Shown here: piece after piece, positions 1 to 12,595 of the stretch | Position numbering within the stretch: position 1 is the first letter of the stretch | Layout of the letters: every line of letters starts with the position of its first letter | Source: Thermoplasmata archaeon | GTDB taxonomy: Archaea > Thermoplasmatota > Thermoplasmata > Lutacidiplasmatales > UBA184 | Assembly (NCBI GenBank): GCA_035504395.1 | Contig: DATJRX010000050.1 | Span: 11,926 to 75,925, forward strand | Reading direction: 5' to 3' | DNA: 64,000 nt | The notes under the pieces: generated by a model | Told to the model about the DNA's origin: nothing | The model's database searches: none | The model's input: the letters and a program-made list of their open reading frames with translations, nothing else | Made by a program: the position numbers and the translations under genes

Positions 1-642
1 TCCGACCTTCGTCCCGTATCCGACGAGGGCGAGCACGACCGCGGTCTGGATCGCGAGGCTCGCCGCAGGGGGGTCGGCGGCGAGCGTGTACGCGTTCAGC
101 GTCCCGGTCGCGGAGTACAGGAGGAGGAGCGCGAAGAGGGCGATCGTGAGGCCGGCGGACGCGATGAGCGTGTACCGCCACGCCGCCTCGACGCTGCTCG
201 GCCGACGCTCGAGCACGATGAGCAGCGCGCTCGCGACCGTGGTCGCCTCGACCCCGATCCACATGAGGCCGAGGTTGGAGACGACCAGCGCCAGGATCAT
301 CGCGAACGCGAAGGCGTTCAGCAGCGCGTAGTAGACCTGCGGCGTGAGGAACGGTCGGTGGACGTCCTCGAGGTAGCCCTTCGAGTACCAGACCGACGTG
401 AGGTAGACCCCGGCGACCATGACCAGGAATACCTCGCTCAGCGGGTCGACGGCGAGGTACGCGCCGAACGTACCGGTGGACGCCGCGGCGAGCAGCGCCA
501 GGGCGGCGACGACGGTGACCAGAGCCCCGACGCGCGACGCGGCTTCCGACCAGCGCCGGAGCGGGACGACGGACAGCACGGCGGCGCAGCTGGGAGCGGC
601 GAGGACCAGGAACAGGCCGAGGGTCGTGACCGAGGGGCTCAT
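1..642 (-). CDS. hyfF: Hydrogenase-4 / formate hydrogenlyase membrane subunit F-like (NuoN/NuoM antiporter-like), N-terminal part; gene leaves the window
   Basis: Absent from the ORF track because it runs off the window. Hand translation of the minus strand from the ATG at 642 gives MSPSVTTLGLFLVLAAP...NLGLMWIGVEATTVASALLIVLE. This is a polytopic antiporter-like sequence. Its ATG overlaps the upstream stop (ATGA at 639-642). Confidence 0.7.
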   Translation of the reverse strand, partial: MSPSVTTLGLFLVLAAPSCAAVLSVVPLRRWSEAASRVGALVTVVAALALLAAASTGTFGAYLAVDPLSEVFLVMVAGVYLTSVWYSKGYLEDVHRPFLTPQVYYALLNAFAFAMILALVVSNLGLMWIGVEATTVASALLIVLERRPSSVEAAWRYTLIASAGLTIALFALLLLYSATGTLNAYTLAADPPAASLAIQTAVVLALVGYGTKVG

Positions 643-1286
643 CCGGTCAGCTCCGGGGTGCTCGCTTCCTCGGGCGATCCGGTGACGTCACGCTGGATCG
701 AGAGGATGATCCCGACGAGGACGACCCCGAGGACGTCGAGGAATACGACGACCTCGACGAAGAGCGGGAACGCCTGCGAGAACAGGGCGCCGGCGTAGAC
801 GACCGCGTTCTCCTCCTCGAGGTAGCCGATGACCTGGACGATCGTGGTCGAGCGGGTGGCGAGCATGAAGAGCCCCTCGACGAGGAGGATGAACGGGAGG
901 GCTGCCCCGGTCTGGGGGAACAAGGGAGCGAGGGTCTCCTGGAAGACGAACCATGCGACGATCGCGAGCGCGACGGCGCCGAGGGCATGGCTCGTCACCC
1001 GCTGGGCGGCTCGCACCTCCCGCACCCGCCACCGGAACGCGCGGATCTGACGGCGGAGGATGTAGGGGATGACCGCCGTGCGGACGGCGATCGTAAGGGC
1101 GGCGAGGATGGCGAGGTCGACGCTCCGCTGGGTCCACGCGAGACCCGCCAGGAGCGCCCCCAACAGCAGCGACTGCAACGCAATGCCCCGGATGAGCGGG
1201 TCGACGAACGACTCGCTCTGGAGATAGAGCGCGGTGAGCAGGATCCCGACGCCGACGAGGGCGATGACCTCGGCCGAGCCTTGCAC
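639..1286 (-). CDS. hyfE: Hydrogenase-4 membrane component E-like (HyfE family)
   Basis: 215-aa polytopic membrane ORF. The C-terminal IGYLEEENAVVYAGALF...VEVVVFLDVLGVV aligns by eye with the E. coli HyfE GYCLMENG region. It sits between HyfC-like and HyfF-like genes. Confidence 0.75.
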   Translation of the reverse strand: MQGSAEVIALVGVGILLTALYLQSESFVDPLIRGIALQSLLLGALLAGLAWTQRSVDLAILAALTIAVRTAVIPYILRRQIRAFRWRVREVRAAQRVTSHALGAVALAIVAWFVFQETLAPLFPQTGAALPFILLVEGLFMLATRSTTIVQVIGYLEEENAVVYAGALFSQAFPLFVEVVVFLDVLGVVLVGIILSIQRDVTGSPEEASTPELTG

Positions 1287-2243
1287 CTACGGCACCCCCA
1301 GGACGGCGAACGCGAAGACCGAGAGAACGGCGAGCGAGAACGAGAGGGCGAGGAAGTCTCGAATCTTGAACAGTCGCACCTTCGCCAGGGTCGCCTCCAG
1401 GGCGACCATGATGACGACGAGCAACCCGAGCTTCGCGAGGAGCAGGACCAGGTTGAACAGCGCACCGGGGATCGTCGGGGCGGTCGAGAGGCCCCACGGC
1501 AGCAGGAAGACGTTGAGGAACACCGAGTAGAGAAGGAATTGCTTCATCCAGCCGTTCCACCGGAACAGAGCGAGCAGGCGACCGGAGTGTTCGTAGATCC
1601 GCCCGTCGTCGATCATGCCCAGTTCCATGAGGCCCGCGCTCTCCACGGGGAGCTTGCCGGTCTCGGCCAACAGGAGCAGGAAGAACGCCGCGGTGACGAG
1701 CAGATGGGTCGGTGATAGGTAGGCAGAGGTGGACGCGGTGAGGACGTTGTTCGTGACGTACGGGTTGTTGGTGCCGCTGATGAGCGCCACCGCGAAGAAC
1801 ACCATGATGAGGGTCGGCTCGGCGAGGGCGGCGAACGAGACCGTTCGGCTGGCGCCGAGAGCGGCGTAGTTGCTCCCCGAGTCGACGGCGGCGAGGAGCG
1901 TCACGATCCCCGCCAACCCGAACAGGAGTCCGCCCCCGAGGAAATCCACGGTCGGTGCGAACGGGATCGGGTAGGGCGTGATGATCGGAACGACGACCGA
2001 GATCAGGAGGTACGCCCCGAACGCCACGAATGGGGCGACCACGAACACGCGGGACGCCCGACGGGGAACCAGGGTCTCCTTGCGGAGGTACTTCGCGAGG
2101 TCCCGGTACGGCTGGAAGATCGAGGGTCCGGTGCGCGACTCGGTCCAGGCCTTAGCGCGGGCGGCGATCCCCGCGATCAGGGGAGCGAGCAGGAGGACGC
2201 TCGCCGCCTGAAGGACGTTGACAACCTGCGCGGTCCATTCCAT
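1287..2243 (-). CDS. hyfC: NuoH/HycD/HyfC-family membrane subunit of a group-4 hydrogenase / formate hydrogenlyase
   Basis: The N-terminus LLAPLIAGIAARAKAWTESRTGPSIFQPYRDLAKYLRKE follows the HycD pattern (R-x-GP...YRD..KLL). There are multiple TM segments. It abuts hyfE with zero gap. Confidence 0.85.
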   Translation of the reverse strand: MEWTAQVVNVLQAASVLLLAPLIAGIAARAKAWTESRTGPSIFQPYRDLAKYLRKETLVPRRASRVFVVAPFVAFGAYLLISVVVPIITPYPIPFAPTVDFLGGGLLFGLAGIVTLLAAVDSGSNYAALGASRTVSFAALAEPTLIMVFFAVALISGTNNPYVTNNVLTASTSAYLSPTHLLVTAAFFLLLLAETGKLPVESAGLMELGMIDDGRIYEHSGRLLALFRWNGWMKQFLLYSVFLNVFLLPWGLSTAPTIPGALFNLVLLLAKLGLLVVIMVALEATLAKVRLFKIRDFLALSFSLAVLSVFAFAVLGVP

Positions 2244-2349: not shown

Positions 2350-3600
2350 TTAAGCCATGACGGCCGGACGGGAAGCGAGGCGTGCGGCCGGCAGAAGGAG
2401 GAGCGCTCCCGCGAGGCAGAACATCGCCGAGATCCCGAACGCGAGCGGGGCCGAGACGTAGGTCCACAGCGCTCCCACTAACAGAGAACCGGCGAGGATA
2501 CCGAATCCCTGCACCATCCCGAGCCACCCGAACGCTGGCCCGACCAGCGGCCCGGACACCTGGCGAACGAGCCACGCGGACTCGGCGACGCCCTGGAGCC
2601 CGACCTGGACGCCGGCCACGACGAACGCGAGGACCGCGAACACGATCCCGGGGGGGCTCGCGAGGAAGGCGTCCACCGCCGCGAACAGCACGAACGACGC
2701 GCCCACGAGCAGGACGCCGGGCGCGCGGTCCGCCCAACCGCCAACCGGGACCGAGAGCCCCGCGAAGATGAGGTTGTAGAGGAGGTACAGCAGGAGGGCC
2801 GCGACGACCGTGCCGGCCACGGAGCCCCCCACCGACGGGAGGAGGTTCTCGCCGACCCGGAGCAGCGCGAGCAGGATGCTGAAATACCCGAGTCCGAAGA
2901 CCGCCTCGGCGACGAGGAACCAACGGACGGGACGCGGGAGGTCCCGCCATCCGGGGTGTCGTACGGCGACCGGGTCGGTCCGATCGGGGGCCGCGGCGTC
3001 GCGGACGACGACCAGGAACACGACGACGGCCACGAGTCCCGGGATCACGGAGATCGCGAAGATCGTGCGGAAGGCGCTCGTGCCCAGCCAGAGCACCAAC
3101 GCGATCGCGACGGCGGTCCCCAGCACCGCGCCCGCCGTGTCCATCGCCTGTTCGAGGCCGAAGGCCAGCCCCTGATGCTCAGGCGCCGTGGCGTTCGCCA
3201 CGATCGCCTTCTTGATCGGCTGGCGCGAGCCTCGGCCCAGCCACGCGGAGACTCGGAGGGCGAGGACCTCGGGCCAGAGGACGGCGAGGGCGATCAGCCC
3301 GTGACTGACCGTGGTCGCGAGGTACCCCCACGACCCCCGTATCTTCCGGTCCCGGCCCGTCGCCCACTGGGTCCCCGACGCGACCTGGACGGCGCTCTGC
3401 GCAAACTGGGCCGCCCCGTCGACCAACCCGACGATCAACGGCGATGCGAACAGCACGAAGGCGAGAAAGAAGGGGAGGACCGGCAGGACCATCTCGTAGG
3501 ACCAGTCCGAGAAGAGGCTGGTCAATGAGACCGCCCACACATCCGGCGCGATCCGGGAGATCCCTCTCCGTCCGTCCCGCGCGGCTGGGTCTACCCCCAT
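2350..3600 (-). CDS. MFS transporter
   Basis: 416-aa ORF with about 12 hydrophobic segments and a central basic loop. Composition and length are typical of the major facilitator superfamily. Confidence 0.8.
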   Translation of the reverse strand: MGVDPAARDGRRGISRIAPDVWAVSLTSLFSDWSYEMVLPVLPFFLAFVLFASPLIVGLVDGAAQFAQSAVQVASGTQWATGRDRKIRGSWGYLATTVSHGLIALAVLWPEVLALRVSAWLGRGSRQPIKKAIVANATAPEHQGLAFGLEQAMDTAGAVLGTAVAIALVLWLGTSAFRTIFAISVIPGLVAVVVFLVVVRDAAAPDRTDPVAVRHPGWRDLPRPVRWFLVAEAVFGLGYFSILLALLRVGENLLPSVGGSVAGTVVAALLLYLLYNLIFAGLSVPVGGWADRAPGVLLVGASFVLFAAVDAFLASPPGIVFAVLAFVVAGVQVGLQGVAESAWLVRQVSGPLVGPAFGWLGMVQGFGILAGSLLVGALWTYVSAPLAFGISAMFCLAGALLLLPAARLASRPAVMA

Positions 3601-3754
3601 CAGCTCCCCGGACCGCGTCAGAGCCTCATGGCGATGCCGCGCGGCGCGGCCCCGCGGGATAACCGTATGTACGACGCATCGCCATGGGCGGTCGGCGATG
3701 GGGCCCGCCTAGCCAACGCCGCCCAGCGGATGATGGCTCCTACGGCAGTGTTCG

Positions 3755-5548
3755 ATGCTGACCCGATCCGTGCATCCGCCGGCGGCGCCGATGCTCGTAG
3801 CGCTCCGTCGCCTTCGTGAGATCGCGGACGCGCTGGGGCAGCCGGACTGTCGGGACGCGATCGACGCGACGCTCGCGACGCTGCCGAAGGGTGTGCTCAA
3901 GGTCGCGGTGCTGGGGCAGTTCAAGCGGGGAAAGTCGTCCCTGCTGAACGCTCTGGTCGGCCGCGATGTGCTTCCCACCGGTATCCTACCGGTCACTTCG
4001 GTCGCGACCGAGGTCCGGGAGGGCCCGGGCGAGCTCCGGGTCGCGTACGCCGCGGGAACCACGTCGCAGGAACCGATCGGGCGCATCGCCGACTTCGTCT
4101 CGGAGGAAGGCAACCCCGAGAACCGCCGGGGGATCTCGCGCGTGGAGGTCGCGATCCCGCTGCCGGGCTGGGCGCGCGACGTGATCTTCGTCGACCATCC
4201 GGGGGTGGGCTCCGTTCACGACGCCACGACGCGCGAGGCCCATCGGCAGCTCGATGGCGTCGAGGCCGCGGTCTTCGTGCTCTCGCCCGACCCGGTGATC
4301 TCCGAGGTCGAGCTCGCGTTCTTGCGACGCGCGACCGAGCACGCCACCCGCTTCTTCTTCGTGATGAACAAGGTCGATCTCATCGGGCCCACCGAGCTCG
4401 AGTCGGTCGTTCGGTACACCGAGCGCACGCTGGTCGAACGCGCGGGGATCTCACGGCCGCACCTCTACCGCCTCTCGGCCCGGGCCGCGCGCCGGATCCG
4501 TTCGAGGGTCGCGCCCGCGGCCGATGGGACCGCCGGTTTCCAGGAGCTGTCCGCCGATCTGGCCCGATACTTGGGCGAAGAGCGCGCGCAGTCGATCGCG
4601 GCGGTGGGCGAGCGCCGGGTCGAGCAGTTCGCCCGTCGCATCGCCGGCATCGCGGAGCTGGCGCTTCGGAGCGCGGCCGCGTCGCGCGAGAGCTTCGAGG
4701 CGACCTCGCGTGCGCTCGATCGCTCGGTCGAGGAGCTCCGGACCGAGCTGCGGGCCGCCGACGCCTTGTTGGACCAGGACCTCACCGTGGCGCTCGAGGC
4801 CGTCACGGCCCGGTTGGCTCGCTTCCCGCTCGACGCGGGCGGGGCGATCGTCGCGCGACTCACGGAGGTGATGCGGTCGTCGACCGCGATCGCGTCGGGC
4901 CGGCTCGTGCGGGAGTTCGAGGAGGCGTTGCGAGACCTCGTGCTCCCGCGCGCGGCCGAGATACGGGCGACCCTCGAACGGCAGCTGGGCGACGCCCTGC
5001 GCGCCGGCTTCGAGCGCCATCGCCGACGCGTGCGCGCGCTGATCCGTCACGTCGAGGACACTGCGACCGGGTCGTTCGGGGTCCGGCTCTTCCCGATCGA
5101 GGCCGACGCCCCGCTGCCGGACCTCCCGGGATATCGCCCCGGCGTCGCAGGGCTTCTCGAGGGGACCTTCGCAGGGCAGACCGTGCTGATGCTGCCGGCC
5201 GCCCTGGTCCGAGGACGTCTCCGGGCGCGCCTGACCCGGCTCGTCGCGGAGGAGCTCGACGCCCAAGCGGGGCGGATCCGATCGGATCTGGTCGACCGAG
5301 GGACCGCCGCGGTCCGGGGGTTCCAAGGGCAGGTCGCGACCGAGGTCGACCGGAACGTCGCCTCGATCGAGGCGGCGCTTAGGTTCGGCCGCGAGCAGGA
5401 TCGAACCGGGGCGGACGTTCGCGAGGATTGGCGCCGGCGGCTCGAGGGCTGGCGGAGCGAGTCCGAGGCGCTCCTCCGGCGTTCCCACGCCGGACCCGGC
5501 ACCGGCGGGCCCGAGCCGGGAGGAAGGTCCGATGCGGCGAGCGGATGA
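3755..5548 (+). CDS. Dynamin-like GTPase (bacterial dynamin-like protein type)
   Basis: G1 is VAVLGQFKRGKSSLLNALVG. G2 is a Thr-containing LPTGILPVTS. G3 is VDHPGVGS and G4 is MNKVD. These are followed by about 400 aa of R/E/A/L-rich helical stalk. Confidence 0.85.
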   Translation: MLTRSVHPPAAPMLVALRRLREIADALGQPDCRDAIDATLATLPKGVLKVAVLGQFKRGKSSLLNALVGRDVLPTGILPVTSVATEVREGPGELRVAYAAGTTSQEPIGRIADFVSEEGNPENRRGISRVEVAIPLPGWARDVIFVDHPGVGSVHDATTREAHRQLDGVEAAVFVLSPDPVISEVELAFLRRATEHATRFFFVMNKVDLIGPTELESVVRYTERTLVERAGISRPHLYRLSARAARRIRSRVAPAADGTAGFQELSADLARYLGEERAQSIAAVGERRVEQFARRIAGIAELALRSAAASRESFEATSRALDRSVEELRTELRAADALLDQDLTVALEAVTARLARFPLDAGGAIVARLTEVMRSSTAIASGRLVREFEEALRDLVLPRAAEIRATLERQLGDALRAGFERHRRRVRALIRHVEDTATGSFGVRLFPIEADAPLPDLPGYRPGVAGLLEGTFAGQTVLMLPAALVRGRLRARLTRLVAEELDAQAGRIRSDLVDRGTAAVRGFQGQVATEVDRNVASIEAALRFGREQDRTGADVREDWRRRLEGWRSESEALLRRSHAGPGTGGPEPGGRSDAASG

Positions 5549-7241
5549 GGAGGTTGTTCGCGCAGTTCCGCCCACCGGTGGGCCCGATGAAGTGCGCCGC
5601 ACTACGACCGAACCCGTCGAGAGGGGAGCATCCAGCGACGAGATGACATCGACCGGCCTCGGGTCGCCGCCGGGGAGCGCCGTGCCAGAGCCGCCAGCGG
5701 GCGGCGAATCGTCCTGCAGCCTGCTGGCCCCTTCCGGGGCGGACGAGATGATCCCGACGGCTCGAGCTCCAGGATCCGTCCTCACGGACCTGAACCTGGA
5801 CGCCGTCGTCGCGGCGCTCGTCCGGGGACGCGAAGAGTACGACCTAGGTCCCCTCTACGAGTCTCCGCCCACCGCGACCGCGACCGTGCGCTATCGCCAG
5901 GACGCGGTCCGCGATCTCGAGGACCCGGTTCTGCGCTCGGCGTGCCTCGCCTTCGCGGCCGGCATGCGGCAGTCCCGGGTCGCGTTCGCGACGGCGGAGC
6001 GTCGCACGCATCTCCTCCAGCGAGCCCGGATCCAACTGGACGCGGTGCGCGCGTACGCTCGGTCGGTCGCCGAGTTCGCCGCGGCGCTCGGGCCGTTGTC
6101 GCTTCGCTCGAGCGGCTGGCAGCGGCTCCGCGCGTACCTGCGGGCGTACGTCACGTCGCCACGGTTTCGGTCGTGGCGGGCCGAGGCCGACGCGATCGAC
6201 GGGGCCATCGCCGAGATCCTCTTCCTTGTGCATCTCAAGGGCCGACGCGTCACGATCGCGACGCATCGGGGAGAGGTCGACTGGGGGGCCGAGATCGAGC
6301 GGACGTTCCAGCGCTTCGAGCGGTCGGAGGGGAAGGACCGTCGCTTCCGCTGGTCGGAAGGACCCGACCTCGACCCGGTGGAGGAACAGATCGTCAATCG
6401 GGTCGCGGTCCTCCACCCCGCGCTGTTCTCCCGCCTGGTGGCGATCGCGCGGGCCGCGGCCGGACAGCTGGATCCCCGGATCGCTCGCGCGGACCGGGAG
6501 GTCCAGTTCTTCCTCGCGTACCTCGAGCTTACCGAGCCCCTCCGAGCGCGAGAGTTCCCGTTTGCGCTGCCGTCGCTCGTCGACCCCGGAGACGGCGAAT
6601 CGGTCGAGGGACTGTTCGATCTGGCGCTGGCGCTCCGGACGGCGGCCCCCGACGCCCGGGTCGTCCCGAACGACTACGCGATCGAGCCCCCGGAGCGGGT
6701 CCTCGTGGTCACAGGGCCGAACCAGGGGGGGAAGACGACGTTCGCGCGCGCGTTCGGGCAGATCCACTTCCTGGCGGCCCTCGGACTGCCCGTGCCGGCC
6801 CGACGGGCCCGGGTGAGCGTCCCGGATCGGATCCTGACGCACTTCGGGGTGGCCGAGCGGCTCGACCAGGGCCACGGTCGGCTCGAGGACGATCTGGAAC
6901 GGCTGCGGTCCTTGCTGGACGCGGCGACGGCGTCGACCGTGGTGGTCTTGAACGAGAGCTTCACGGCGGCGACCGTCCAAGACGCGCTGGCCGTCGGTTC
7001 CGAGGTCCTTCGTCGGGTCTTCGTCCGCGGTTCGACCGCGGTCTGCGTGACCTTCCTCGACGAACTCTCCCGGCTCGGGCCCGAGACGGTCAGCCTCGTC
7101 GCCGAGGTCGCGCGAGACGATCCGAACGTCCGAACCTTCCGTCTGGTGCGGCGACCCGCGGACGGGCGAGCGTACGCACGGGCGCTCGCCGAGCGGCACG
7201 GGCTGGCCTACGAGTCCCTCGCGCGAAGGCTGACGACATGA
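5532..7241 (+). CDS. MutS-like ABC ATPase (domain III/V only, no mismatch-binding or nuclease domain), paralogue 1
   Basis: Walker A is VVTGPNQGGKTTFARAFG. Walker B-like is TVVVLNESFTAAT. The TH-motif position reads CVTFLDEL. The start is uncertain: 5532 overlaps the dynamin stop, and in-frame ATGs at 5643 and 5748 are alternatives. Confidence 0.8.
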   Translation: MRRADEEVVRAVPPTGGPDEVRRTTTEPVERGASSDEMTSTGLGSPPGSAVPEPPAGGESSCSLLAPSGADEMIPTARAPGSVLTDLNLDAVVAALVRGREEYDLGPLYESPPTATATVRYRQDAVRDLEDPVLRSACLAFAAGMRQSRVAFATAERRTHLLQRARIQLDAVRAYARSVAEFAAALGPLSLRSSGWQRLRAYLRAYVTSPRFRSWRAEADAIDGAIAEILFLVHLKGRRVTIATHRGEVDWGAEIERTFQRFERSEGKDRRFRWSEGPDLDPVEEQIVNRVAVLHPALFSRLVAIARAAAGQLDPRIARADREVQFFLAYLELTEPLRAREFPFALPSLVDPGDGESVEGLFDLALALRTAAPDARVVPNDYAIEPPERVLVVTGPNQGGKTTFARAFGQIHFLAALGLPVPARRARVSVPDRILTHFGVAERLDQGHGRLEDDLERLRSLLDAATASTVVVLNESFTAATVQDALAVGSEVLRRVFVRGSTAVCVTFLDELSRLGPETVSLVAEVARDDPNVRTFRLVRRPADGRAYARALAERHGLAYESLARRLTT

Positions 7242-8785
7242 AGTCGCGCCTACTCCACTCCGACCGCGTCTACCGGCTCGACGATCCCCTGCCGCCGGGC
7301 GCCGACGACCTCGCGCGCGACCTCGGGGTCGATGCGCTGTTGGACGCGATGGCCGGCGGCGATCCGTTCGTCCGGTCCGTCGCGCGCCGGGTCGTGCTCG
7401 ATCCCCTGCTCGACCCCGAGGAGATCCAGAGGCGCCTCGACGCCCTTGACGACTGCCGGGCCCAGACGGCGGCGGTACGCGAGCTCTACGCGATCTGCGG
7501 CCGGGCGCTCGCCCGCGCTCGCGAGTACTGGGGGTTCGGGGACTTCCCGGACTCCGTGCTGTTCCGATCGGCCCGCCAGCTCGAGGGCCATGCCGACGCG
7601 CTCGAAGAGCTGCGCCGAGTCGCGGACGGCGCCGGCGCCCGGTTCCGCTCCACCGCGTTCTCCGAGTTCTTCGCCCGACTCCGCGCGGAGCTGGACGACG
7701 CATACCTCGCGACGGTTCGGTCGCACCTGGAGCGGCTCGAGTTCCGCGACGGGACGTGGGTGTCCGCCGGGTTGGGACCGGGGCTCCGCCCGTCGGGCCA
7801 CGTCCTTCGGCTCCCGATCGAGGAGCGCCGTTCCTGGTGGCAACGACTCACCGGTTCCCGACGCTCGAATCTCGCGTTCGAGATCGGAGAGCAGGACGAG
7901 TCGGGGGCTCGGGCGCTCGCTCGTCAGCGGGAGAAGGGGATCGCGTCCGTGGCCCGGTCGCTCGCCCGATCGAACGAGCACCTCCATGCGTTCTTCGAGA
8001 CGCTGCGCGCGGAGCTCGCGTTCTACCTCGGAGCGATGAATCTGGAGACCGCGCTCCGAGCCCGGGGGGGACTCGTGGCACGTCCCGATCCCCGGCCCGA
8101 GGATCCGGTCGCGTGGAGCGCGGAGGGCCTGTACGACGCCGGGCTCGCCCTCCGGTCGTCGGTCCCCGTCGTCCCCAACGACCTAGCGGCCGACGGCAAG
8201 CGGCTCGTCGTCATCACGGGAGCGAACCAGGGGGGAAAGTCGACGTTCCTGCGGGCGCTCGGGCTCGCCCAGATGCTCCTGCAGGCGGGCTTGTTCGTAC
8301 CGGCGCGCCGATTCCGGGCGAGTCTCGCGCCGTCCATCGCGACCCATTTCCCGAGGGAGGAGGACCCGACGATGGTACGGGGCCGTCTCGACGACGAGCT
8401 CCAGCGAATGAACCGAGCGACCGGTTCCCTCCACCGGCACAGCCTCCTGCTATCGAACGAATCGTTCGCGTCGACCAACGAACGCGAAGGGTCGGAGATC
8501 GCGATCGAGGTGGTCCGTGCCCTGGTCGATTCGGGGGTTCGGGTCGTGGCGGTCACGCACCTGTACGAATTTGCAGGGTCCTTGCGCTCTGCCGATCGGC
8601 CGGACGCGGTCTTCCTGCGCGCCGAGCGCACGCCCGACGGTCGGCGCACGTTCCGACTCGAGGTCGGGGACCCGCTGGCCACCAGCTTCGCCGCGGACGT
8701 GTTTGCCCGGGTGTTCGGCGAGCCGCTGCCTCCGATCGCGTCGACCGCCGGGGGGTTCGAGGGCGGAGAGCCGCGAGCTCGCTGA
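7238..8785 (+). CDS. MutS-like ABC ATPase (domain III/V only), paralogue 2
   Basis: This is the real gene inside the 947-aa track ORF. It starts at MKSRLLHSDRVYRL, with an ATGA overlap on the upstream stop. Walker A is VITGANQGGKSTFLRALG. Other motifs are LLLSNESFASTNEREG and VAVTHLYEF. Confidence 0.85.
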   Translation: MKSRLLHSDRVYRLDDPLPPGADDLARDLGVDALLDAMAGGDPFVRSVARRVVLDPLLDPEEIQRRLDALDDCRAQTAAVRELYAICGRALARAREYWGFGDFPDSVLFRSARQLEGHADALEELRRVADGAGARFRSTAFSEFFARLRAELDDAYLATVRSHLERLEFRDGTWVSAGLGPGLRPSGHVLRLPIEERRSWWQRLTGSRRSNLAFEIGEQDESGARALARQREKGIASVARSLARSNEHLHAFFETLRAELAFYLGAMNLETALRARGGLVARPDPRPEDPVAWSAEGLYDAGLALRSSVPVVPNDLAADGKRLVVITGANQGGKSTFLRALGLAQMLLQAGLFVPARRFRASLAPSIATHFPREEDPTMVRGRLDDELQRMNRATGSLHRHSLLLSNESFASTNEREGSEIAIEVVRALVDSGVRVVAVTHLYEFAGSLRSADRPDAVFLRAERTPDGRRTFRLEVGDPLATSFAADVFARVFGEPLPPIASTAGGFEGGEPRAR

Positions 8786-8897
8786 CGTGCGGAAGGTGAA
8801 CGGGACGAATAAGTTCAAGAACTCGAACGGAGAGCCAAGGCGTAGCATGGTACAGAGAGTCACGGATTATGTAGCCCACGCCACGTAGGCGCGGCTC

Positions 8898-9524
8898 ATG
8901 GCAGCCGCCGGGACCGACAAGCCGCCCTCCGAGCCGACCAAAGACCCGTTCTGGGCTCCCGCCACCGTGGTGGGGCTATGTGGATTCGGAACGACCACGA
9001 TGATCGCCGGCATGGCGATCGCGACGAACGGGGCCAACTGGGGCGTCAACAACGCCGCCGTGTTCCCGATGGCGCTCGCCTTCGGTGGCACCGCCCAGTT
9101 CGTCGCGGGGATCGTCATGCTCCGCCGGGGCGAGATCTTCCCGGGCTCCGCGTTCATGGGATATGGCGCGTTCTGGTGGGCTTTCACCTTGTTCCTCAGC
9201 GGACTCGCGGGCAGCGCCTTCGGGGCCTTGGCGCCGTACGACATCGCCTGGTTCATGGTCGTGTGGGCGTTGTTCACGCTCACGTTCGCGATCAACTCGC
9301 ATTATCACGGCCCGGGGATCGCGTTCGTATTTTGGACGCTGGTGCTCGCCTTCGTGCTGCTGGCGATCGACTTCGGACTCCTGGGTGCCGGCCACACGGT
9401 GTCGAACGGACTGTGGGAGGCGACCGGGATCGATACGTTCATCTGCGGATTCGCGGCGTGGTACGTGGCGACGGGATTCATCACGGCCCAGCACCACCAA
9501 GGCCGGAAGGTCCTGCCGTACTGA
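8898..9524 (+). CDS. GPR1/FUN34/YaaH (SatP/AceTr) family acetate-succinate channel
   Basis: Six TM segments. GLCGFGTTT, FGGTAQFVAGIVMLRRG and YGAFWWAF align by eye with E. coli SatP (GLMGFGMTT, YGGIAQIFAGLLEYKKG, YGSFWLT). Confidence 0.85.
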   Translation: MAAAGTDKPPSEPTKDPFWAPATVVGLCGFGTTTMIAGMAIATNGANWGVNNAAVFPMALAFGGTAQFVAGIVMLRRGEIFPGSAFMGYGAFWWAFTLFLSGLAGSAFGALAPYDIAWFMVVWALFTLTFAINSHYHGPGIAFVFWTLVLAFVLLAIDFGLLGAGHTVSNGLWEATGIDTFICGFAAWYVATGFITAQHHQGRKVLPY

Positions 9525-11140: not shown

Positions 11141-11604
11141 CGGGCGCCCCGCGCCGCGACCCGCGCCTTCAGCACCTGGCGGGGGTCCTCGCCCCCGACC
11201 GTGATGCCGAGCGAGACGCACGTGCCGATCACCTGGTTGATCTTCTCCTCCTTCGAGCGCCCGTGCAGGTCGTCGCCCTTGGCGTCGGCGATGCGGCCGA
11301 CCGCCTCGAGGCTCACGTCGCCGATCGTCTCGGTCTTCGGCTTGCCGGACCCCTTCTCCTTCTTCGCTTCCTTGAGGAGCAGGGCGGCGACCGGCGGACG
11401 ACCGACCACGAGGGTGAACGCGCGGGTCGCCGGGTCGACCCGGATGATGACCGGGACGCGCATCCCCGCGAACTGCTTCGTCTCCTCGTTGATCTTCGTG
11501 ACGACCTGACCGACGTTCACGCCCAGGGGCCCGAGCGCGCTCCCGAGCGTCGCCCCGGCCGCGGCCTTCCCGCCCTCGACGAGGACGCTGACCTCAACTG
11601 CCAC
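11137..11604 (-). CDS. rpl11: 50S ribosomal protein uL11
   Basis: MAVEVSVLVEGGKAAAGATLGSALGPLGVNVGQVVTKINEETKQFAGMRVPVII is the typical archaeal L11 N-terminal domain. The gene sits downstream of spt5 as in other archaea. Confidence 0.95.
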   Translation of the reverse strand: MAVEVSVLVEGGKAAAGATLGSALGPLGVNVGQVVTKINEETKQFAGMRVPVIIRVDPATRAFTLVVGRPPVAALLLKEAKKEKGSGKPKTETIGDVSLEAVGRIADAKGDDLHGRSKEEKINQVIGTCVSLGITVGGEDPRQVLKARVAARGAR

Positions 11605-12595
11605 TCTTCCCGCCTCCGCGTTCCAGCATGCGCACGTGATCGCCCCGGACCGTGACCGGGATCGGGACGACCGCCTCGATGAGCTCCACCGTGATCTCCT
11701 CCTTCGTCTGGTCGATCTTCTTCACGCGGGCCTTCTCGCCCTTGAACGGCCCCGAGATCAGCTCGACGATCGCGCCCTCGACGAAGCCCTCGACCGTGAT
11801 CTTCGGGACGAGCAGGGGCTCGACCTCCTTGAGGGTCGTCTCCCCGTCGACGAGCCCGCGCGCCTTGCGGATCCCCTTGAGCATCTCGCGGACGCCCTCG
11901 AAGCTCATCCCCTCGGCGAAGACGTAGCCCCGGAGCGACGACGGGACGAGCATGGCGAACACGACGTCCGGCTTCTCGTCGGTCCGCGCGAGCAGCGTGT
12001 CGGCGACCTCGCGCTCGTAGCCGCGGCTGGTCTTGATTGCGAGGACCGCTTGGCGGGCGACCGACGCGAGCGTGAGCTTGAGCGGGGTGCCGCCGTCCCC
12101 GTCGGCGACGCTGAGCCGGATCTCGACCCGATCCCCGTACCGGACCCCGACCGGCGCCGTGATCTCGAACGAGAGCGGCACGCCCGCGCCGGGCGCGATC
12201 GCGACCGGCACGGAGATCTTCCGGGCGAACAGATCGGTCGCGGTCCTCTTCCCGGGAGGCACCCAGCGCACTGGCCACTCGGCGCCCTCGCCGGGGTAGG
12301 TGGACGTGTAGGCGACCTCGATCGAGACCGGGACCGTGAGCGGCTCGGCGGCGCGGCTCGTCAGCACGGCGCTGAGCGTCGTGACCGTGCCGGCCGTGAC
12401 CTCGCGGGCCGTGTCGTCGGCGGCCTTCAGCGTGAGCAGGGCGGAGACCTGGGGCTTGGGGGGCGTCGGGGCGACCGCGGCGGCCGGGACCGGGACCGCG
12501 GCGGGAGCGGCCGGCTCGGGCTTGCGCGGGGGAGCCTCCGTCGGTCCTCCGGACAGGAGGCCGATGCCTTCGTCCTCGTCGGGATGCTCTACCAT
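11594..12595 (-). CDS. spt5: Transcription elongation factor Spt5 (NusG) with a ~180-aa N-terminal extension
   Basis: The C-terminal ~150 aa form NGN + KOW (AVLAIKTSRGYEREVADTLL ... GAIVELISGPFKGEKARVKKID). The ORF is uninterrupted upstream. I found no in-frame ATG/GTG/TTG just before the NGN domain. Confidence 0.85.
   Translation of the reverse strand: MVEHPDEDEGIGLLSGGPTEAPPRKPEPAAPAAVPVPAAAVAPTPPKPQVSALLTLKAADDTAREVTAGTVTTLSAVLTSRAAEPLTVPVSIEVAYTSTYPGEGAEWPVRWVPPGKRTATDLFARKISVPVAIAPGAGVPLSFEITAPVGVRYGDRVEIRLSVADGDGGTPLKLTLASVARQAVLAIKTSRGYEREVADTLLARTDEKPDVVFAMLVPSSLRGYVFAEGMSFEGVREMLKGIRKARGLVDGETTLKEVEPLLVPKITVEGFVEGAIVELISGPFKGEKARVKKIDQTKEEITVELIEAVVPIPVTVRGDHVRMLERGGGKSGS

What the first reader, a model, noticed from the sequence alone, without database searches (positions are those of the whole stretch)
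3755..8785. Dynamin-like GTPase operonically fused to two tandem domain-I-less MutS-like ATPases
SEEN. Three same-strand genes have no intergenic space. There is a candidate 17-nt overlap at 5532-5548 and an ATGA overlap at 7238-7241. Gene 1 has all the dynamin G motifs (GQFKRGKSSLLNAL, DHPG, NKVD) plus a long helical stalk. Genes 2 and 3 are paralogues. Both have a helical N-terminal half that opens with a similar L-x-DL-x-(L/V)DA-(V/L) element, then a MutS domain V ABC ATPase (GPNQGGKTTF and GANQGGKSTF). Neither shows a mismatch-binding N-terminal domain, an Smr domain or another nuclease domain. Both have Asn where the Walker B Asp should be (VVVLNESF, LLLSNESF; E. coli MutS has LMDEIGRGT). 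Only the second keeps the TH motif (AVTHLYEF versus CVTFLDEL). This asymmetry resembles heterodimeric MSH pairs. The neighbours (MFS transporter, acetate channel) are not repair genes.

ESTABLISHED. Dynamin-like proteins remodel membranes. Bacterial LeoA/LeoBC dynamin-like GTPases form the Eleos anti-phage system. MutS paralogues lacking domain I (MutS2 class) act on branched DNA or collided ribosomes rather than on mismatches.

INFERENCE. This is a three-component GTPase plus heterodimeric clamp-ATPase module for which I know no described function. It could be a defence or stress-sensing system, or membrane-coupled nucleic-acid handling.
Basis: partly seen in the sequence, partly recalled or inferred. 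Interest (0 to 1): 0.75.

Follow-up and report, generated by a model that had tools for sequence, protein, structure and literature searches.

The report
Fluoride-riboswitch operon: dynamin-like GTPase plus MutS4A/B

Summary
ORFs 3755-5548 (dynamin-like protein, DLP), 5532-7241 and 7238-8785 (two MutS domain-V paralogues) are present, with the stated overlaps and motifs.

- An Rfam fluoride riboswitch (RF01734) lies at 3685-3749 and ends 5 nt before the DLP start codon.
- The tandem pair is the published MutS4A/MutS4B subfamily (Lin, Nei & Ma 2007). "mutS" genes were already listed as downstream of the crcB/fluoride motif (Weinberg 2010).

Comparative results:
- The pair occurs in at least 572 species.
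- 72 of 84 loci have a fluoride riboswitch within 10 kb.
- The recurrent neighbours are the fluoride gene pool: enolase, pyrophosphatase, CrcB, DUF190, Na+/H+ antiporter, Usp, MFS and a Hyc/Ehr-like complex.
- A DLP lies within 10 kb in about one third of loci. It directly precedes MutS4A in at least four bacterial phyla plus Thermoplasmata.
- The DLP family has a fluoride riboswitch just upstream in 38 of 75 usable metagenome loci, mostly without MutS4.

New family-wide features: Walker B is Asn-Glu in both paralogues, and the H-loop is His in MutS4B but Phe in MutS4A.

A defence reading is not supported. The biochemical roles remain inferred.

The parts
3685..3749 (+). Fluoride riboswitch aptamer (crcB motif, RF01734). 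It ends 5 nt before the DLP start codon.
   Evidence: Rfam cmscan gives 36.7 bits (gathering 34), E 1.6e-6, over the full model 1-64. The same element sits in the same position, 5 nt before the DLP ATG, in a second Thermoplasmata contig, L006 7294-7358 at 42.3 bits. My own model R1 scores it 61.2 bits, but this sequence was part of the training set.
3755..5548 (+). Dynamin-like GTPase of the BDLP/IniA structural class (G domain, helical neck and trunk, candidate membrane loop at residues ~442-485).
   Evidence: Pfam Dynamin_N 3.6e-22. The AF2 model has pLDDT 86.8. Foldseek gives full-length matches to IniA 6j72 (7e-19) and BDLP 2j69 (3e-18). phmmer against PDB sequences finds the Campylobacter DLP 5owv_C, BDLP and IniA. 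Homologues of 597 aa support the start at 3755.
5532..7241 (+). MutS4A: a domain-I-less MutS-core ATPase with a degenerate site (Walker B Asn-Glu, H-loop Phe). The start codon is uncertain (5532, 5643 or 5748).
   Evidence: Pfam MutS_V 2.6e-16. Orthologues lie directly upstream of MutS4B in essentially all loci. N474-E475 and F508 are invariant in 77/77 sequences. An SD-like GGAGGAAGG precedes ATG 5532.
7238..8785 (+). MutS4B: a domain-I-less MutS-core ATPase (lever/core, small clamp insert, domain V). Walker B is Asn-Glu and the H-loop His is retained.
   Evidence: Pfam MutS_V 1.9e-13. It is 100% identical to a protein named from a Thermoplasmata archaeon MAG, and homologues across phyla are ~50% identical. 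The AF2 model has pLDDT 81.4 and pTM 0.81. Foldseek aligns the full length to MutS2, MutSbeta and MutS. N407-E408 and H441 are invariant in 84/84 sequences.
2350..3600 (-). MFS transporter, divergent from the riboswitch operon. It belongs to a neighbour family that recurs next to MutS4 pairs.
   Evidence: Pfam MFS_1 6.7e-22. It falls in ORF cluster 6, found in 26 of 84 loci.
1..2243 (-). Part of a Hyc/Ehr-like complex-I-type membrane module: hycD-like (1287-2243), hycP-like (639-1286) and a Proton_antipo_M subunit that runs off the window start (1-638).
   Evidence: Pfam NADHdh 1.9e-34 for 1287-2243. Clusters 7 and 9 recur in 21 and 17 loci in the order hycD-hycP-NuoN-NuoCD-NuoB-NuoL (Pfam labels). 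A tblastn hit of the NuoLMN representative covers window 1-462 on the minus strand.
8898..9524 (+). GPR1/FUN34/YaaH (SatP-like) anion channel gene, 112 nt downstream on the same strand. It may be co-transcribed.
   Evidence: Pfam Gpr1_Fun34_YaaH 5.5e-20. Homologues lie near MutS4 pairs in 4 other loci: L006, L042, L055 and L085. No T-rich terminator is visible in 8786-8897.

Best explanation
This is a fluoride-inducible operon inside an archaeal (Thermoplasmata) fluoride-response island.

Regulation (probability ~0.9 that the operon belongs to the fluoride regulon): fluoride binding to the aptamer at 3685-3749 switches on expression of the downstream genes. This ON logic is established for the riboswitch class but was not tested here.

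Gene products:
- (i) A BDLP/IniA-type dynamin-like GTPase.
- (ii) MutS4A and MutS4B, which are translationally coupled. I infer that they form an obligate asymmetric heterodimer of MutS-core ABC ATPases with one competent site (B: Asn-Glu plus His) and one degenerate site (A: Asn-Glu plus Phe).

The DLP and MutS4AB are two separate modules of the fluoride gene pool. They are often placed in one transcript but are not an obligate three-part machine (~0.7).

Molecular roles (inferred only, ~0.3 each). MutS4AB most likely acts as a nucleotide-gated clamp on branched or stalled DNA, like the other domain-I-less MutS proteins MutS2 and MSH4-MSH5. It would support recombination or replication restart when fluoride poisons Mg-dependent phosphoryl-transfer enzymes. 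The DLP most likely preserves or remodels the membrane under HF/acid stress, by analogy with IniA.
For: Regulation:
- The riboswitch is found by Rfam above the gathering score and is the only Rfam hit in the 64 kb window.
- The same riboswitch-DLP-MutS4A-MutS4B layout occurs in L006 (Thermoplasmata), L028 (Eremiobacterota), L032 (Desulfobacteraceae) and L079 (Chloroflexota). L030 has a riboswitch directly upstream of MutS4A. All are Rfam gathering-level hits.

Fluoride context of the MutS4 pair:
- Model R1 finds 180 riboswitches in 1.47 Mb around MutS4 pairs. 72 of 84 loci have at least one. 47 of 85 MutS4A genes have one within 400 nt upstream.
- The neighbour families are enolase, PPase, CrcB, DUF190, Na+/H+ exchanger, Usp, phosphoglycerate mutase, MFS and a Hyc-like complex. 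This matches the published fluoride-riboswitch gene set (PMC11139923; PMC2864571).
- On the E. coli plasmid p027_SK3a the pair sits in a riboswitch-led operon, antiporter-Usp-MutS4A-MutS4B. It lies next to the ppaC-usp-eno-gpmA-crcB operon that was validated experimentally in E. cloacae FRM (PMC5533749).

DLP family:
- 38 of 75 usable metagenome loci have the riboswitch within 450 nt upstream of the DLP. Rfam confirms it in 13 of 13 loci tested.
- Neighbours of the DLP come from the same gene pool. MutS4 is present in only 13 of 80 loci.

Heterodimer:
- The A-then-B order is constant, with an ATGA or GTGA overlap in 75 of 85 junctions.
- The H-loop difference between A and B is complementary and invariant.

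Clamp fold:
- Foldseek aligns the full length of MutS4B to MutS2, MutSbeta and MutS.
- The only experiment on MutS4 showed more homologous recombination in M. smegmatis carrying the M. yongonense operon: 55 versus 22 colonies and 75% versus 31% recombinants (PMC5742357).

DLP fold:
- The closest structures are IniA and BDLP.
Against: - The window riboswitch scores only 2.7 bits above the Rfam threshold and has one non-canonical pair in its second helix.
- The expression platform is unresolved. The fold of 3670-3830 is not better than shuffles, z -1.17.
- No archaeal experiment exists for this element.
- No CrcB, enolase or PPase homologue is present in the 64 kb window, so the 'island' here is partial.
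- The DNA role of MutS4AB rests on fold analogy and one heterologous experiment that was unrelated to fluoride.
- Every recurrent neighbour is a membrane, ion or metabolic gene; none acts on DNA.
- The predicted clamp insert has low confidence, pLDDT 44-55 over residues ~170-220.
- The DLP abuts or overlaps MutS4A in several phyla. That would also fit a physical partnership.
Confidence: 0.62

Rival explanations
1. The DLP and MutS4AB form an obligate physical complex: a membrane-anchored GTPase that recruits or loads a MutS-like clamp, coupling the nucleoid or another substrate to the membrane. The precedent would be the E. coli dynamin-like CrfC, which binds the beta sliding clamp.
For: The genes abut or overlap, which suggests translational coupling, in the window, L006, L028, L032, L047 and L079 across five lineages. 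DLP genes lie within 10 kb of the pair in 25 of 78 loci, far above any genome-wide expectation for DLP genes. Nearest-neighbour DLPs of MutS4-linked DLPs are often also MutS4-linked, 27 against 2 clearly unlinked. NCBIfam gives a weak similarity to CrfC.
Against: Two thirds of MutS4 loci have no DLP within 10 kb. Most riboswitch-led DLPs have no MutS4 nearby, and 14 have at least 5 kb on both flanks without it. The closest relative of the L032 DLP (L105, 59% identity) has 10 kb of downstream sequence without MutS4. Enolase, MFS, Usp and Na+/H+ genes are as frequent or more frequent next to the DLP than MutS4 is. No multimer prediction could be run.
Confidence: 0.15
2. MutS4AB acts on ribosomes rather than DNA. 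Like B. subtilis MutS2 (RqcU), it would clamp and split stalled or collided ribosomes, here ribosomes stalled because fluoride-metal complexes trap translational GTPases.
For: Among the best Foldseek hits are MutS2 models, including the MutS2-collided-disome complex 7qv3_w (5e-15) and the T. thermophilus MutS2 core 7vuf. The best PDB sequence-profile hit is the MutS2 core, 5.8e-21. Like MutS2, MutS4 lacks the mismatch-binding domains. That metal fluorides trap GTPases is established knowledge and was not tested here.
Against: MutS4 lacks the KOW and Smr domains of MutS2. No ribosome-associated genes recur in the neighbourhood. There are no data on translation stalling by fluoride in these organisms.
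Confidence: 0.1
3. MutS4AB is not a nucleic-acid enzyme. It would be an ATP-driven protein reactivase or chaperone, as proposed for the MutS-like KamC of lysine 5,6-aminomutase. It would strip Mg-fluoride-phosphate complexes from poisoned enzymes such as enolase or pyrophosphatase, or assist the Hyc/Ehr-like complex.
For: NCBIfam's KamC model is the top hit for MutS4B (2.8e-18, 66 bits), above the MutS1 and MutS2 models. Enolase is the most frequent neighbour, in 31 of 84 loci, and the Hyc-like module occurs in ~21. The invariant Walker B Asn changes Mg2+ coordination at the very site where metal fluorides bind (plus established ABC-ATPase chemistry).
Against: The KamC score is far below its cut-off of 300 and covers only the ATPase core, residues 322-442. 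The whole MutS lever-plus-clamp architecture is retained. Neighbourhood in a regulon island does not imply a direct partnership.
Confidence: 0.08
4. The triad is an anti-phage or anti-plasmid defence system related to Eleos (LeoA/LeoBC), with MutS-like effectors.
For: The PADLOC LeoA model hits the DLP at 4.2e-9. The pair is horizontally mobile: it is found on 48 plasmids, 21 of them conjugative.
Against: The LeoA hit covers only residues 20-70 around the P-loop. NCBIfam LeoA scores 13.5 bits against a cut-off of 325. No defence model hits the MutS genes beyond P-loop noise. The neighbours are fluoride-response genes. The operon is driven by a fluoride riboswitch. The phage database yields one partial hit.
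Confidence: 0.02

Closest known systems
MutS4A/MutS4B subfamily (Lin, Nei & Ma 2007, NAR 35:7591; PMC2190696)
   Same: Both are two adjacent paralogues that carry only the MutSac (domain V) signature by sequence. The stop codon of A overlaps the start codon of B. The subfamily is patchily distributed in distant bacteria and in Thermoplasmatales archaea, which suggests HGT. The function has not been studied.
   Different: Nothing structural differs. This work adds the fluoride-riboswitch context, the invariant Asn-Glu Walker B, the His/Phe H-loop asymmetry and a full MutS core fold. None of these appeared in the passages of that paper that I read.
Fluoride riboswitch regulon (crcB motif: Weinberg 2010, PMC2864571; review PMC11139923; E. 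cloacae FRM operon, PMC5533749)
   Same: The aptamer class is the same and lies in the 5' leader. The associated gene pool is the same: 'mutS', 'formate hydrogen lyase', enolase, PPase, Na+/H+ antiporters, Usp, HAD and exporters. The class is present in bacteria and archaea.
   Different: No paper in the searchable library links dynamin-like GTPases to the fluoride riboswitch (0 hits). The fluoride literature I could read does not identify the 'mutS' class as MutS4A/B. Baker et al. 2012 could not be read.
MutS2 / RqcU and eukaryotic MSH4-MSH5
   Same: Both lack the mismatch-binding domain I. Both retain the lever, clamp and ABC ATPase core (Foldseek E ~1e-15). MSH4-MSH5 is also an asymmetric heterodimer that clamps branched DNA.
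   Different: MutS4 has no KOW or Smr domain. Its Walker B Asp is replaced by Asn in both subunits. The clamp insert is much smaller. NCBIfam MutS2 scores are 50-65 bits against a cut-off of 400.
IniA (Mycobacterium) and BDLP (Nostoc) bacterial dynamin-like proteins
   Same: These are the best full-length structural matches (7e-19 and 3e-18). The architecture is the same: G domain, neck and trunk, with a loop at the trunk tip. IniA is likewise stress-induced.
   Different: Sequence identity is only 17-21%. The DLP here is single-copy rather than one of a tandem DLP pair. It is controlled by a fluoride riboswitch. Membrane binding was not tested.
Eleos (LeoA/LeoBC) defence system
   Same: It contains dynamin-like GTPases.
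   Different: The LeoA and LeoBC models are not matched beyond the P-loop. There is no second DLP here. The genomic context is fluoride response, not defence.
KamC (MutS-like reactivase ATPase of lysine 5,6-aminomutase)
   Same: It is a MutS domain-V ATPase without mismatch-repair domains. It is the top NCBIfam hit for MutS4B. It is a precedent for a MutS-type ATPase with a role outside DNA.
   Different: The score is 66 bits against a cut-off of 300. No aminomutase genes are nearby.

Membership tests
MutS4A/MutS4B subfamily | Two adjacent paralogous genes, A upstream of B, on the same strand | tested here: met
   Genes 5532-7241 and 7238-8785. They are 39% identical over the ATPase domain, E 2e-30. 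The same A-then-B order is found in the 84 comparison loci.
MutS4A/MutS4B subfamily | [quoted passage not shown] | tested here: met
   ATGA at 7238-7241. 65 ATGA and 10 GTGA among 85 junctions elsewhere. The feature is quoted from PMC2190696.
MutS4A/MutS4B subfamily | Only the MutSac/domain V signature is detectable by sequence; no MutS-I, MutS-II or Smr | tested here: met
   Pfam finds only MutS_V above threshold. MutS_III scores 14.6 bits against 34.1.
MutS4A/MutS4B subfamily | Groups phylogenetically with the original MutS4 sequences (Thermoplasma, Ferroplasma, Thermoanaerobacter tengcongensis, mycobacteria) | tested here: inconclusive
   No tree with the original accessions was built. Indirect support: close homologues occur in Thermoanaerobacter (L022, E 6e-132) and Thermoanaerobacterium (L084) genomes and on a Mycobacterium branderi plasmid. 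The window itself comes from a Thermoplasmata MAG.
MutS1 (mismatch repair MutS) | Mismatch-binding domain I plus connector domain II; reaches the equivalog score | tested here: not met
   NCBIfam TIGR01070 scores 59.8 and 48.5 bits against a cut-off of 641.7. PRK05399 scores 70 and 52 bits against 480. Only the ATPase region aligns. The AF2 model begins with the helical core.
MutS2 (endonuclease MutS2 / RqcU) | C-terminal KOW and Smr nuclease domains; reaches the equivalog score | tested here: not met
   TIGR01069 scores 50.3 and 64.7 bits against a cut-off of 400. The proteins end about 50-70 residues after the ATPase core, and no Smr hit is found.
Fluoride riboswitch (Rfam RF01734) | Matches the covariance model at or above the gathering score, over the full length, in a 5' leader | tested here: met
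   36.7 bits against 34, model positions 1-64 of 64, 5 nt upstream of the DLP ATG. A syntenic copy is present in L006.
Fluoride riboswitch (Rfam RF01734) | Binds fluoride and activates downstream expression | not testable with these tools
   This needs in-line probing or a reporter assay. The expression platform was not resolved by folding.
Dynamin superfamily, bacterial DLP (BDLP/IniA class) | Dynamin-type G domain with G1-G4 motifs | tested here: met
   Pfam Dynamin_N 79.6 bits against 27. GQFKRGKS, T81, DHPG and NKVD are present. The P-loop, T81 and D147/G150 are invariant in alignment A3.
Dynamin superfamily, bacterial DLP (BDLP/IniA class) | Helical neck and trunk with a membrane-binding tip | tested here: inconclusive
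   Full-length Foldseek matches to IniA and BDLP. The trunk-tip coil at 442-471 is followed by the hydrophobic TFAGQTVLMLPAALV and the basic RGRLRAR. Membrane binding was not tested.
Eleos (LeoA/LeoBC) defence system | LeoA-family and LeoBC-family DLPs encoded together | tested here: not met
   NCBIfam DLP_LeoA_gen scores 13.5 bits against 325. PADLOC LeoA scores 34 bits over residues 20-70 only, and LeoBC 15.9 bits. The operon has a single DLP.
KamC reactivase ATPase | Reaches the equivalog score; encoded with lysine aminomutase genes | tested here: not met
   66 and 33.9 bits against a cut-off of 300. No kam genes occur in the window or in the recurrent neighbour families.

The most novel reading that the evidence does not exclude
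MutS4AB and this DLP clade are dedicated countermeasures to a still unrecognised cellular target of fluoride. On this reading the invariant Walker-B Asn (in place of the Mg-coordinating Asp) makes MutS4AB a clamp ATPase that either resists trapping by Mg/Al-fluoride or is switched by it. Where the two are co-encoded, the clamp would work with the dynamin-like GTPase at the membrane. That would reveal a fluoride-specific DNA-, ribosome- or membrane-protection pathway shared by bacteria and archaea.
Probability: 0.15. Interest if true: 0.85.

Novelty: new variant of a known kind. Interest (0 to 1): 0.58.

Why it matters
'mutS' genes have been listed downstream of the crcB/fluoride motif since 2010, and I found no functional study of them. 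This window and the comparison loci identify that gene class as the MutS4A/B heterodimer. The pair is about 50% identical across phyla and domains. It occurs in at least 572 species and on enterobacterial conjugative plasmids.

The analysis gives MutS4A/B sharp, testable features: Asn-Glu Walker B in both subunits, and His in B against Phe in A. It also adds a dynamin-like GTPase family to the fluoride regulon.

If the roles are confirmed, fluoride toxicity would have a nucleic-acid-handling or membrane-remodelling arm beyond export, pH homeostasis and extra copies of inhibited enzymes. The E. coli plasmid island (L166) offers an immediate genetic system.

Tried and rejected
- Defence system: PADLOC, NCBIfam LeoA and the phage database give no support.
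- MutS1, MutS2 or KamC membership: all scores are far below the cut-offs.
- Regex motif counting produced false Walker B and H-loop matches. I replaced it with column counts on MAFFT alignments.
- Expression platform: the MFE fold of 3670-3830 shows an alternative pairing of the aptamer with the early coding region, but z = -1.17, so no conclusion is possible.
- 'Rosetta stone' fusion: P0241 (1026 aa) aligns to MutS4A and then to MutS4B, but the last ~80 residues of the A half do not align. It may be a frameshifted gene call, so I did not use it as evidence.
- DLP subclade specific to MutS4: the nearest-neighbour test is suggestive but is confounded by the two sampling sources and by short contigs.
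- Literature: Baker et al. 2012 (Science) could not be retrieved by three identifiers. One broad search returned only irrelevant papers. The Weinberg 2010 supplement adds nothing on mutS or dynamin.
- E. cloacae FRM transcriptome: that island lacks MutS4, so it gives no direct induction data.
- No CrcB, enolase or PPase homologue was found in the 64 kb window.

Full report
**1. What is in the sequence**

The window is 66-74% G+C over the first 16 kb. Its third gene is 100% identical to a protein that NCBI names from a Thermoplasmata archaeon MAG. ORFs 3755-5548, 5532-7241 and 7238-8785 lie on the + strand.

Pfam gives Dynamin_N for gene 1 (3.6e-22) and MutS_V for genes 2 and 3 (2.6e-16 and 1.9e-13). 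The ATGA overlap at 7238-7241 is exact.

The 17-nt overlap at 5532-5548 depends on using ATG 5532. That codon has an SD-like GGAGGAAGG just upstream. However, the first ~80 residues are not conserved in homologues, so a start at 5643 or 5748 remains possible.

Genes 2 and 3 are paralogues, 39% identical over 225 aa with E 2e-30.

**2.

An Rfam scan of the whole 64 kb window returns a single hit. It is the fluoride riboswitch aptamer RF01734 at 3685-3749 (+), 36.7 bits against a gathering score of 34, E 1.6e-6, over the full model. It ends 5 nt before the DLP start codon.

A second Thermoplasmata contig (L006) has the same element, again ending 5 nt before the start of its DLP. That DLP is 47% identical to the window's and is followed by MutS4A and MutS4B.

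**3. The tandem MutS-like pair is a named family**

Lin, Nei & Ma (2007) defined MutS4A/MutS4B. They are adjacent genes with only the MutSac domain. The stop codon of A overlaps the start codon of B. They occur in a few distant bacteria and in Thermoplasma and Ferroplasma, and their function is unstudied (PMC2190696). A later paper found the same signature in mycobacteria (PMC5742357). The window pair meets these criteria.

MutS1, MutS2 and KamC equivalog models score far below their cut-offs.

An AF2 model of MutS4B (pLDDT 81.4, pTM 0.81) aligns over its whole length to MutS2, MutSbeta/alpha and E. coli MutS (Foldseek E 4e-16 to 6e-14). The 'helical N-terminal half' is therefore the MutS core/lever. 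It carries a small, low-confidence clamp insert at residues ~168-220. There is no domain I or II, no KOW and no Smr.

**4. How widespread the pair is, and in what company**

The 80 loci kept span Chloroflexota, Actinomycetota, Acidobacteriota, Pseudomonadota, Bacillota, Bacteroidota, Spirochaetota, Verrucomicrobiota, Planctomycetota, Eremiobacterota, Dormiibacterota, Atribacteria, and Bathyarchaeota, Nitrososphaerales and Thermoplasmata archaea. An exhaustive phmmer search finds 750 clusters (50% identity) at E <= 1e-30.

MutS4A lies directly upstream of MutS4B in essentially every locus. The junction is ATGA or GTGA in 75 of 85 cases.

I clustered all ORFs in 84 loci de novo and labelled the clusters with Pfam. 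The recurrent neighbours are:
- enolase, 31 loci;
- MFS transporter, 26 loci (includes the window gene 2350-3600);
- DLP, 26 loci;
- a Hyc/Ehr-like complex-I-type module (hycD-hycP-NuoN-NuoCD-NuoB-NuoL), about 21 loci (includes window genes 1-2243);
- CrcB, DUF190, Usp, Na+/H+ exchanger, inorganic pyrophosphatase, phosphoglycerate mutase and a HAD-like protein.

This is the gene set reported for fluoride riboswitches (PMC11139923). Weinberg et al. [quoted passage not shown]

**5. Riboswitch statistics**

I built a covariance model from nine Rfam-confirmed aptamers. It finds 180 matches (E <= 0.01) in the 1.47 Mb around MutS4 pairs. 72 of 84 loci have at least one match. 47 of 85 MutS4A genes have one within 400 nt upstream on the same strand. 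None precedes MutS4B, which fits A-B co-transcription.

The remaining ~60 kb of the window has no match.

**6. The dynamin-like protein**

The AF2 model (pLDDT 86.8) matches IniA (7e-19) and BDLP (3e-18) over its full length. By sequence it is nearest to the Campylobacter DLP, BDLP and IniA. It is not a LeoA, DynA or CrfC equivalog. A coil at the trunk tip (442-471) is followed by a hydrophobic and then a basic stretch. This is a candidate membrane paddle.

Position relative to MutS4 pairs:
- A DLP lies within 10 kb in 25 of 78 complete-pair loci.
- It abuts the pair (<= 300 nt) in 9 of those.
- It directly precedes MutS4A on the same strand in L006, L028, L032, L047 and L079, as well as in the window.

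In L006, L028, L032 and L079, Rfam places a fluoride riboswitch immediately upstream of the DLP.

I then searched in the other direction. A metagenome scan with a DLP alignment gave 80 loci, in which my model found 101 riboswitches in 838 kb. 38 of 75 usable DLPs have one within 450 nt upstream. Rfam confirmed this in 13 of 13 loci tested. Only 13 of the 80 contain MutS4. Enolase (22), MFS (20), Usp (17) and Na+/H+ exchanger (17) are more frequent neighbours.

The DLP family is therefore itself a fluoride-riboswitch-controlled family. MutS4AB is one of several regulon members it is found beside. The full-text library holds no paper that combines fluoride, riboswitch and dynamin. I could not read Baker et al. 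2012, so prior mention there cannot be excluded.

**7. Family-wide active-site features**

On alignments of 77 MutS4A and 84 MutS4B sequences:
- Walker A is intact in both.
- The Walker B pair is Asn-Glu in all sequences of both paralogues.
- The H-loop residue is His in all MutS4B and Phe in all MutS4A.

The profile alignment to T. thermophilus MutS2 places the Asn on the Walker B Asp (LLLlNEsF over LVLIDELG). Together with the fixed gene order and overlap, this argues for an obligate heterodimer with one competent and one degenerate composite site. That conclusion is inferred; no multimer prediction was possible.

The Asn sits where the Mg2+ ligand normally is. Metal-fluoride complexes bind ABC ATPases at the same site (established knowledge, not tested here).

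**8. Mobility and a tractable model**

MutS4B homologues occur on 48 PLSDB plasmids: Klebsiella 18, Rhodococcus 6, Citrobacter 6, Enterobacter 5 and others. 21 of them are conjugative.

On E. coli plasmid p027_SK3a (L166), a riboswitch at 8282-8342 precedes a cation:proton antiporter, Usp, MutS4A and MutS4B. On the other strand lie a P-type ATPase, crcB, gpmA, eno, usp and a DHHA2 pyrophosphatase, led by a second riboswitch. A third riboswitch precedes a CLC-type channel and DUF190. The ppaC-uspA-eno-gpmA-crcB-orf5249 operon was shown experimentally to be fluoride-induced and required for resistance in Enterobacter cloacae FRM (PMC5533749). That strain's island lacks MutS4, so there are no induction data for MutS4 itself.

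Only 1 of 5426 complete E. coli genomes carries the pair.

**9. Interpretation**

Shown:
- The riboswitch is present and syntenic.
- The pair belongs to MutS4A/B.
- MutS4AB and the DLP family both sit in fluoride-riboswitch contexts across many phyla.
- The triad arrangement recurs but is optional.

Inferred:
- Fluoride induces the operon.
- MutS4A and MutS4B heterodimerise.
- MutS4AB is a nucleotide-gated clamp. DNA is the most likely substrate, by analogy with MutS2 and MSH4-MSH5 and from one heterologous recombination experiment (55 versus 22 colonies; 75% versus 31% recombinants).
- The DLP acts on the membrane.

The rival readings are an obligate DLP-MutS4AB complex, ribosome rescue, a KamC-like reactivase and defence. 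I weight them at about 0.15, 0.10, 0.08 and 0.02.

**10. Verdict**

The finding is a new variant within a known kind, namely fluoride-riboswitch operons that carry MutS4A/B. Its interest is moderate to good because it turns an old 'known unknown' into specific experiments and adds a dynamin-like GTPase to the fluoride response.

Noticed in passing
window 1-2243 (- strand): A partial Hyc/Ehr-like complex-I-type gene cluster: hycD-like (NADHdh), a hycP-like 215-aa protein with no Pfam hit, and a Proton_antipo_M subunit that runs off the window start. The same six-gene module lies beside MutS4 pairs in about 21 loci, often with its own fluoride riboswitch upstream of hycD (16 of 22).
   Followed up: partly
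window 8898-9524 (+): A GPR1/FUN34/YaaH (SatP-like) anion channel gene lies 112 nt downstream of MutS4B on the same strand. Homologues occur near MutS4 pairs in L006, L042, L055 and L085. It may be another fluoride-island member; whether it transports fluoride, formate or another weak-acid anion is unknown.
   Followed up: partly
L166 (E. coli plasmid NZ_CP067312.1, 143041-168456): A plasmid of enterobacterial type carries a three-riboswitch fluoride island. It holds MutS4A/B next to the operon validated in E. cloacae FRM, together with a CLC-type channel, DUF190, a P-type ATPase, PAP2 and HAD genes. Similar MutS4B hits occur on 18 Klebsiella plasmids, many from clinical isolates.
   Followed up: partly
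L042, L055, L070 (whole loci); L028 4339-7366: Some loci carry 7-9 fluoride riboswitch matches within about 22 kb. L028 has four within 3 kb, including back-to-back divergent copies. The density of one riboswitch class is very high.
   Followed up: no
L057 3934-5643; proteins P0175, P0207; L004 1495-2385: A second DLP type near MutS4 pairs has a Cys-rich C-terminal region. Precomputed Pfam annotation lists DUF6062 (PF19538) together with Dynamin_N in some DLP homologues. A stand-alone DUF6062 gene lies 4 kb from the pair in L004.
   Followed up: no
protein P0241 (1026 aa) and P0242 (942 aa): Single ORFs that align first to MutS4A and then to MutS4B. They could be natural fusions or frameshifted gene calls. 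In P0241 the last ~80 residues of the A half do not align.
   Followed up: partly
window 11594-12595 (- strand): An ORF with Spt5-NGN and KOW domains only in its C-terminal 150 residues (186-304 of 333). The long N-terminal part may be an over-extended ORF call or an unusual extension.
   Followed up: no
phage record MT837116.1 2134-2850: A 7.7 kb unannotated 'Bacteriophage sp.' record from human faeces encodes a partial MutS4B-like ATPase region (35% identity over 47% of the query). It is the only hit in the phage collection.
   Followed up: no
L113 18594-18762: A cobalamin riboswitch (118 bits) lies 7 kb downstream of a riboswitch-led DLP. It is probably unrelated.
   Followed up: no
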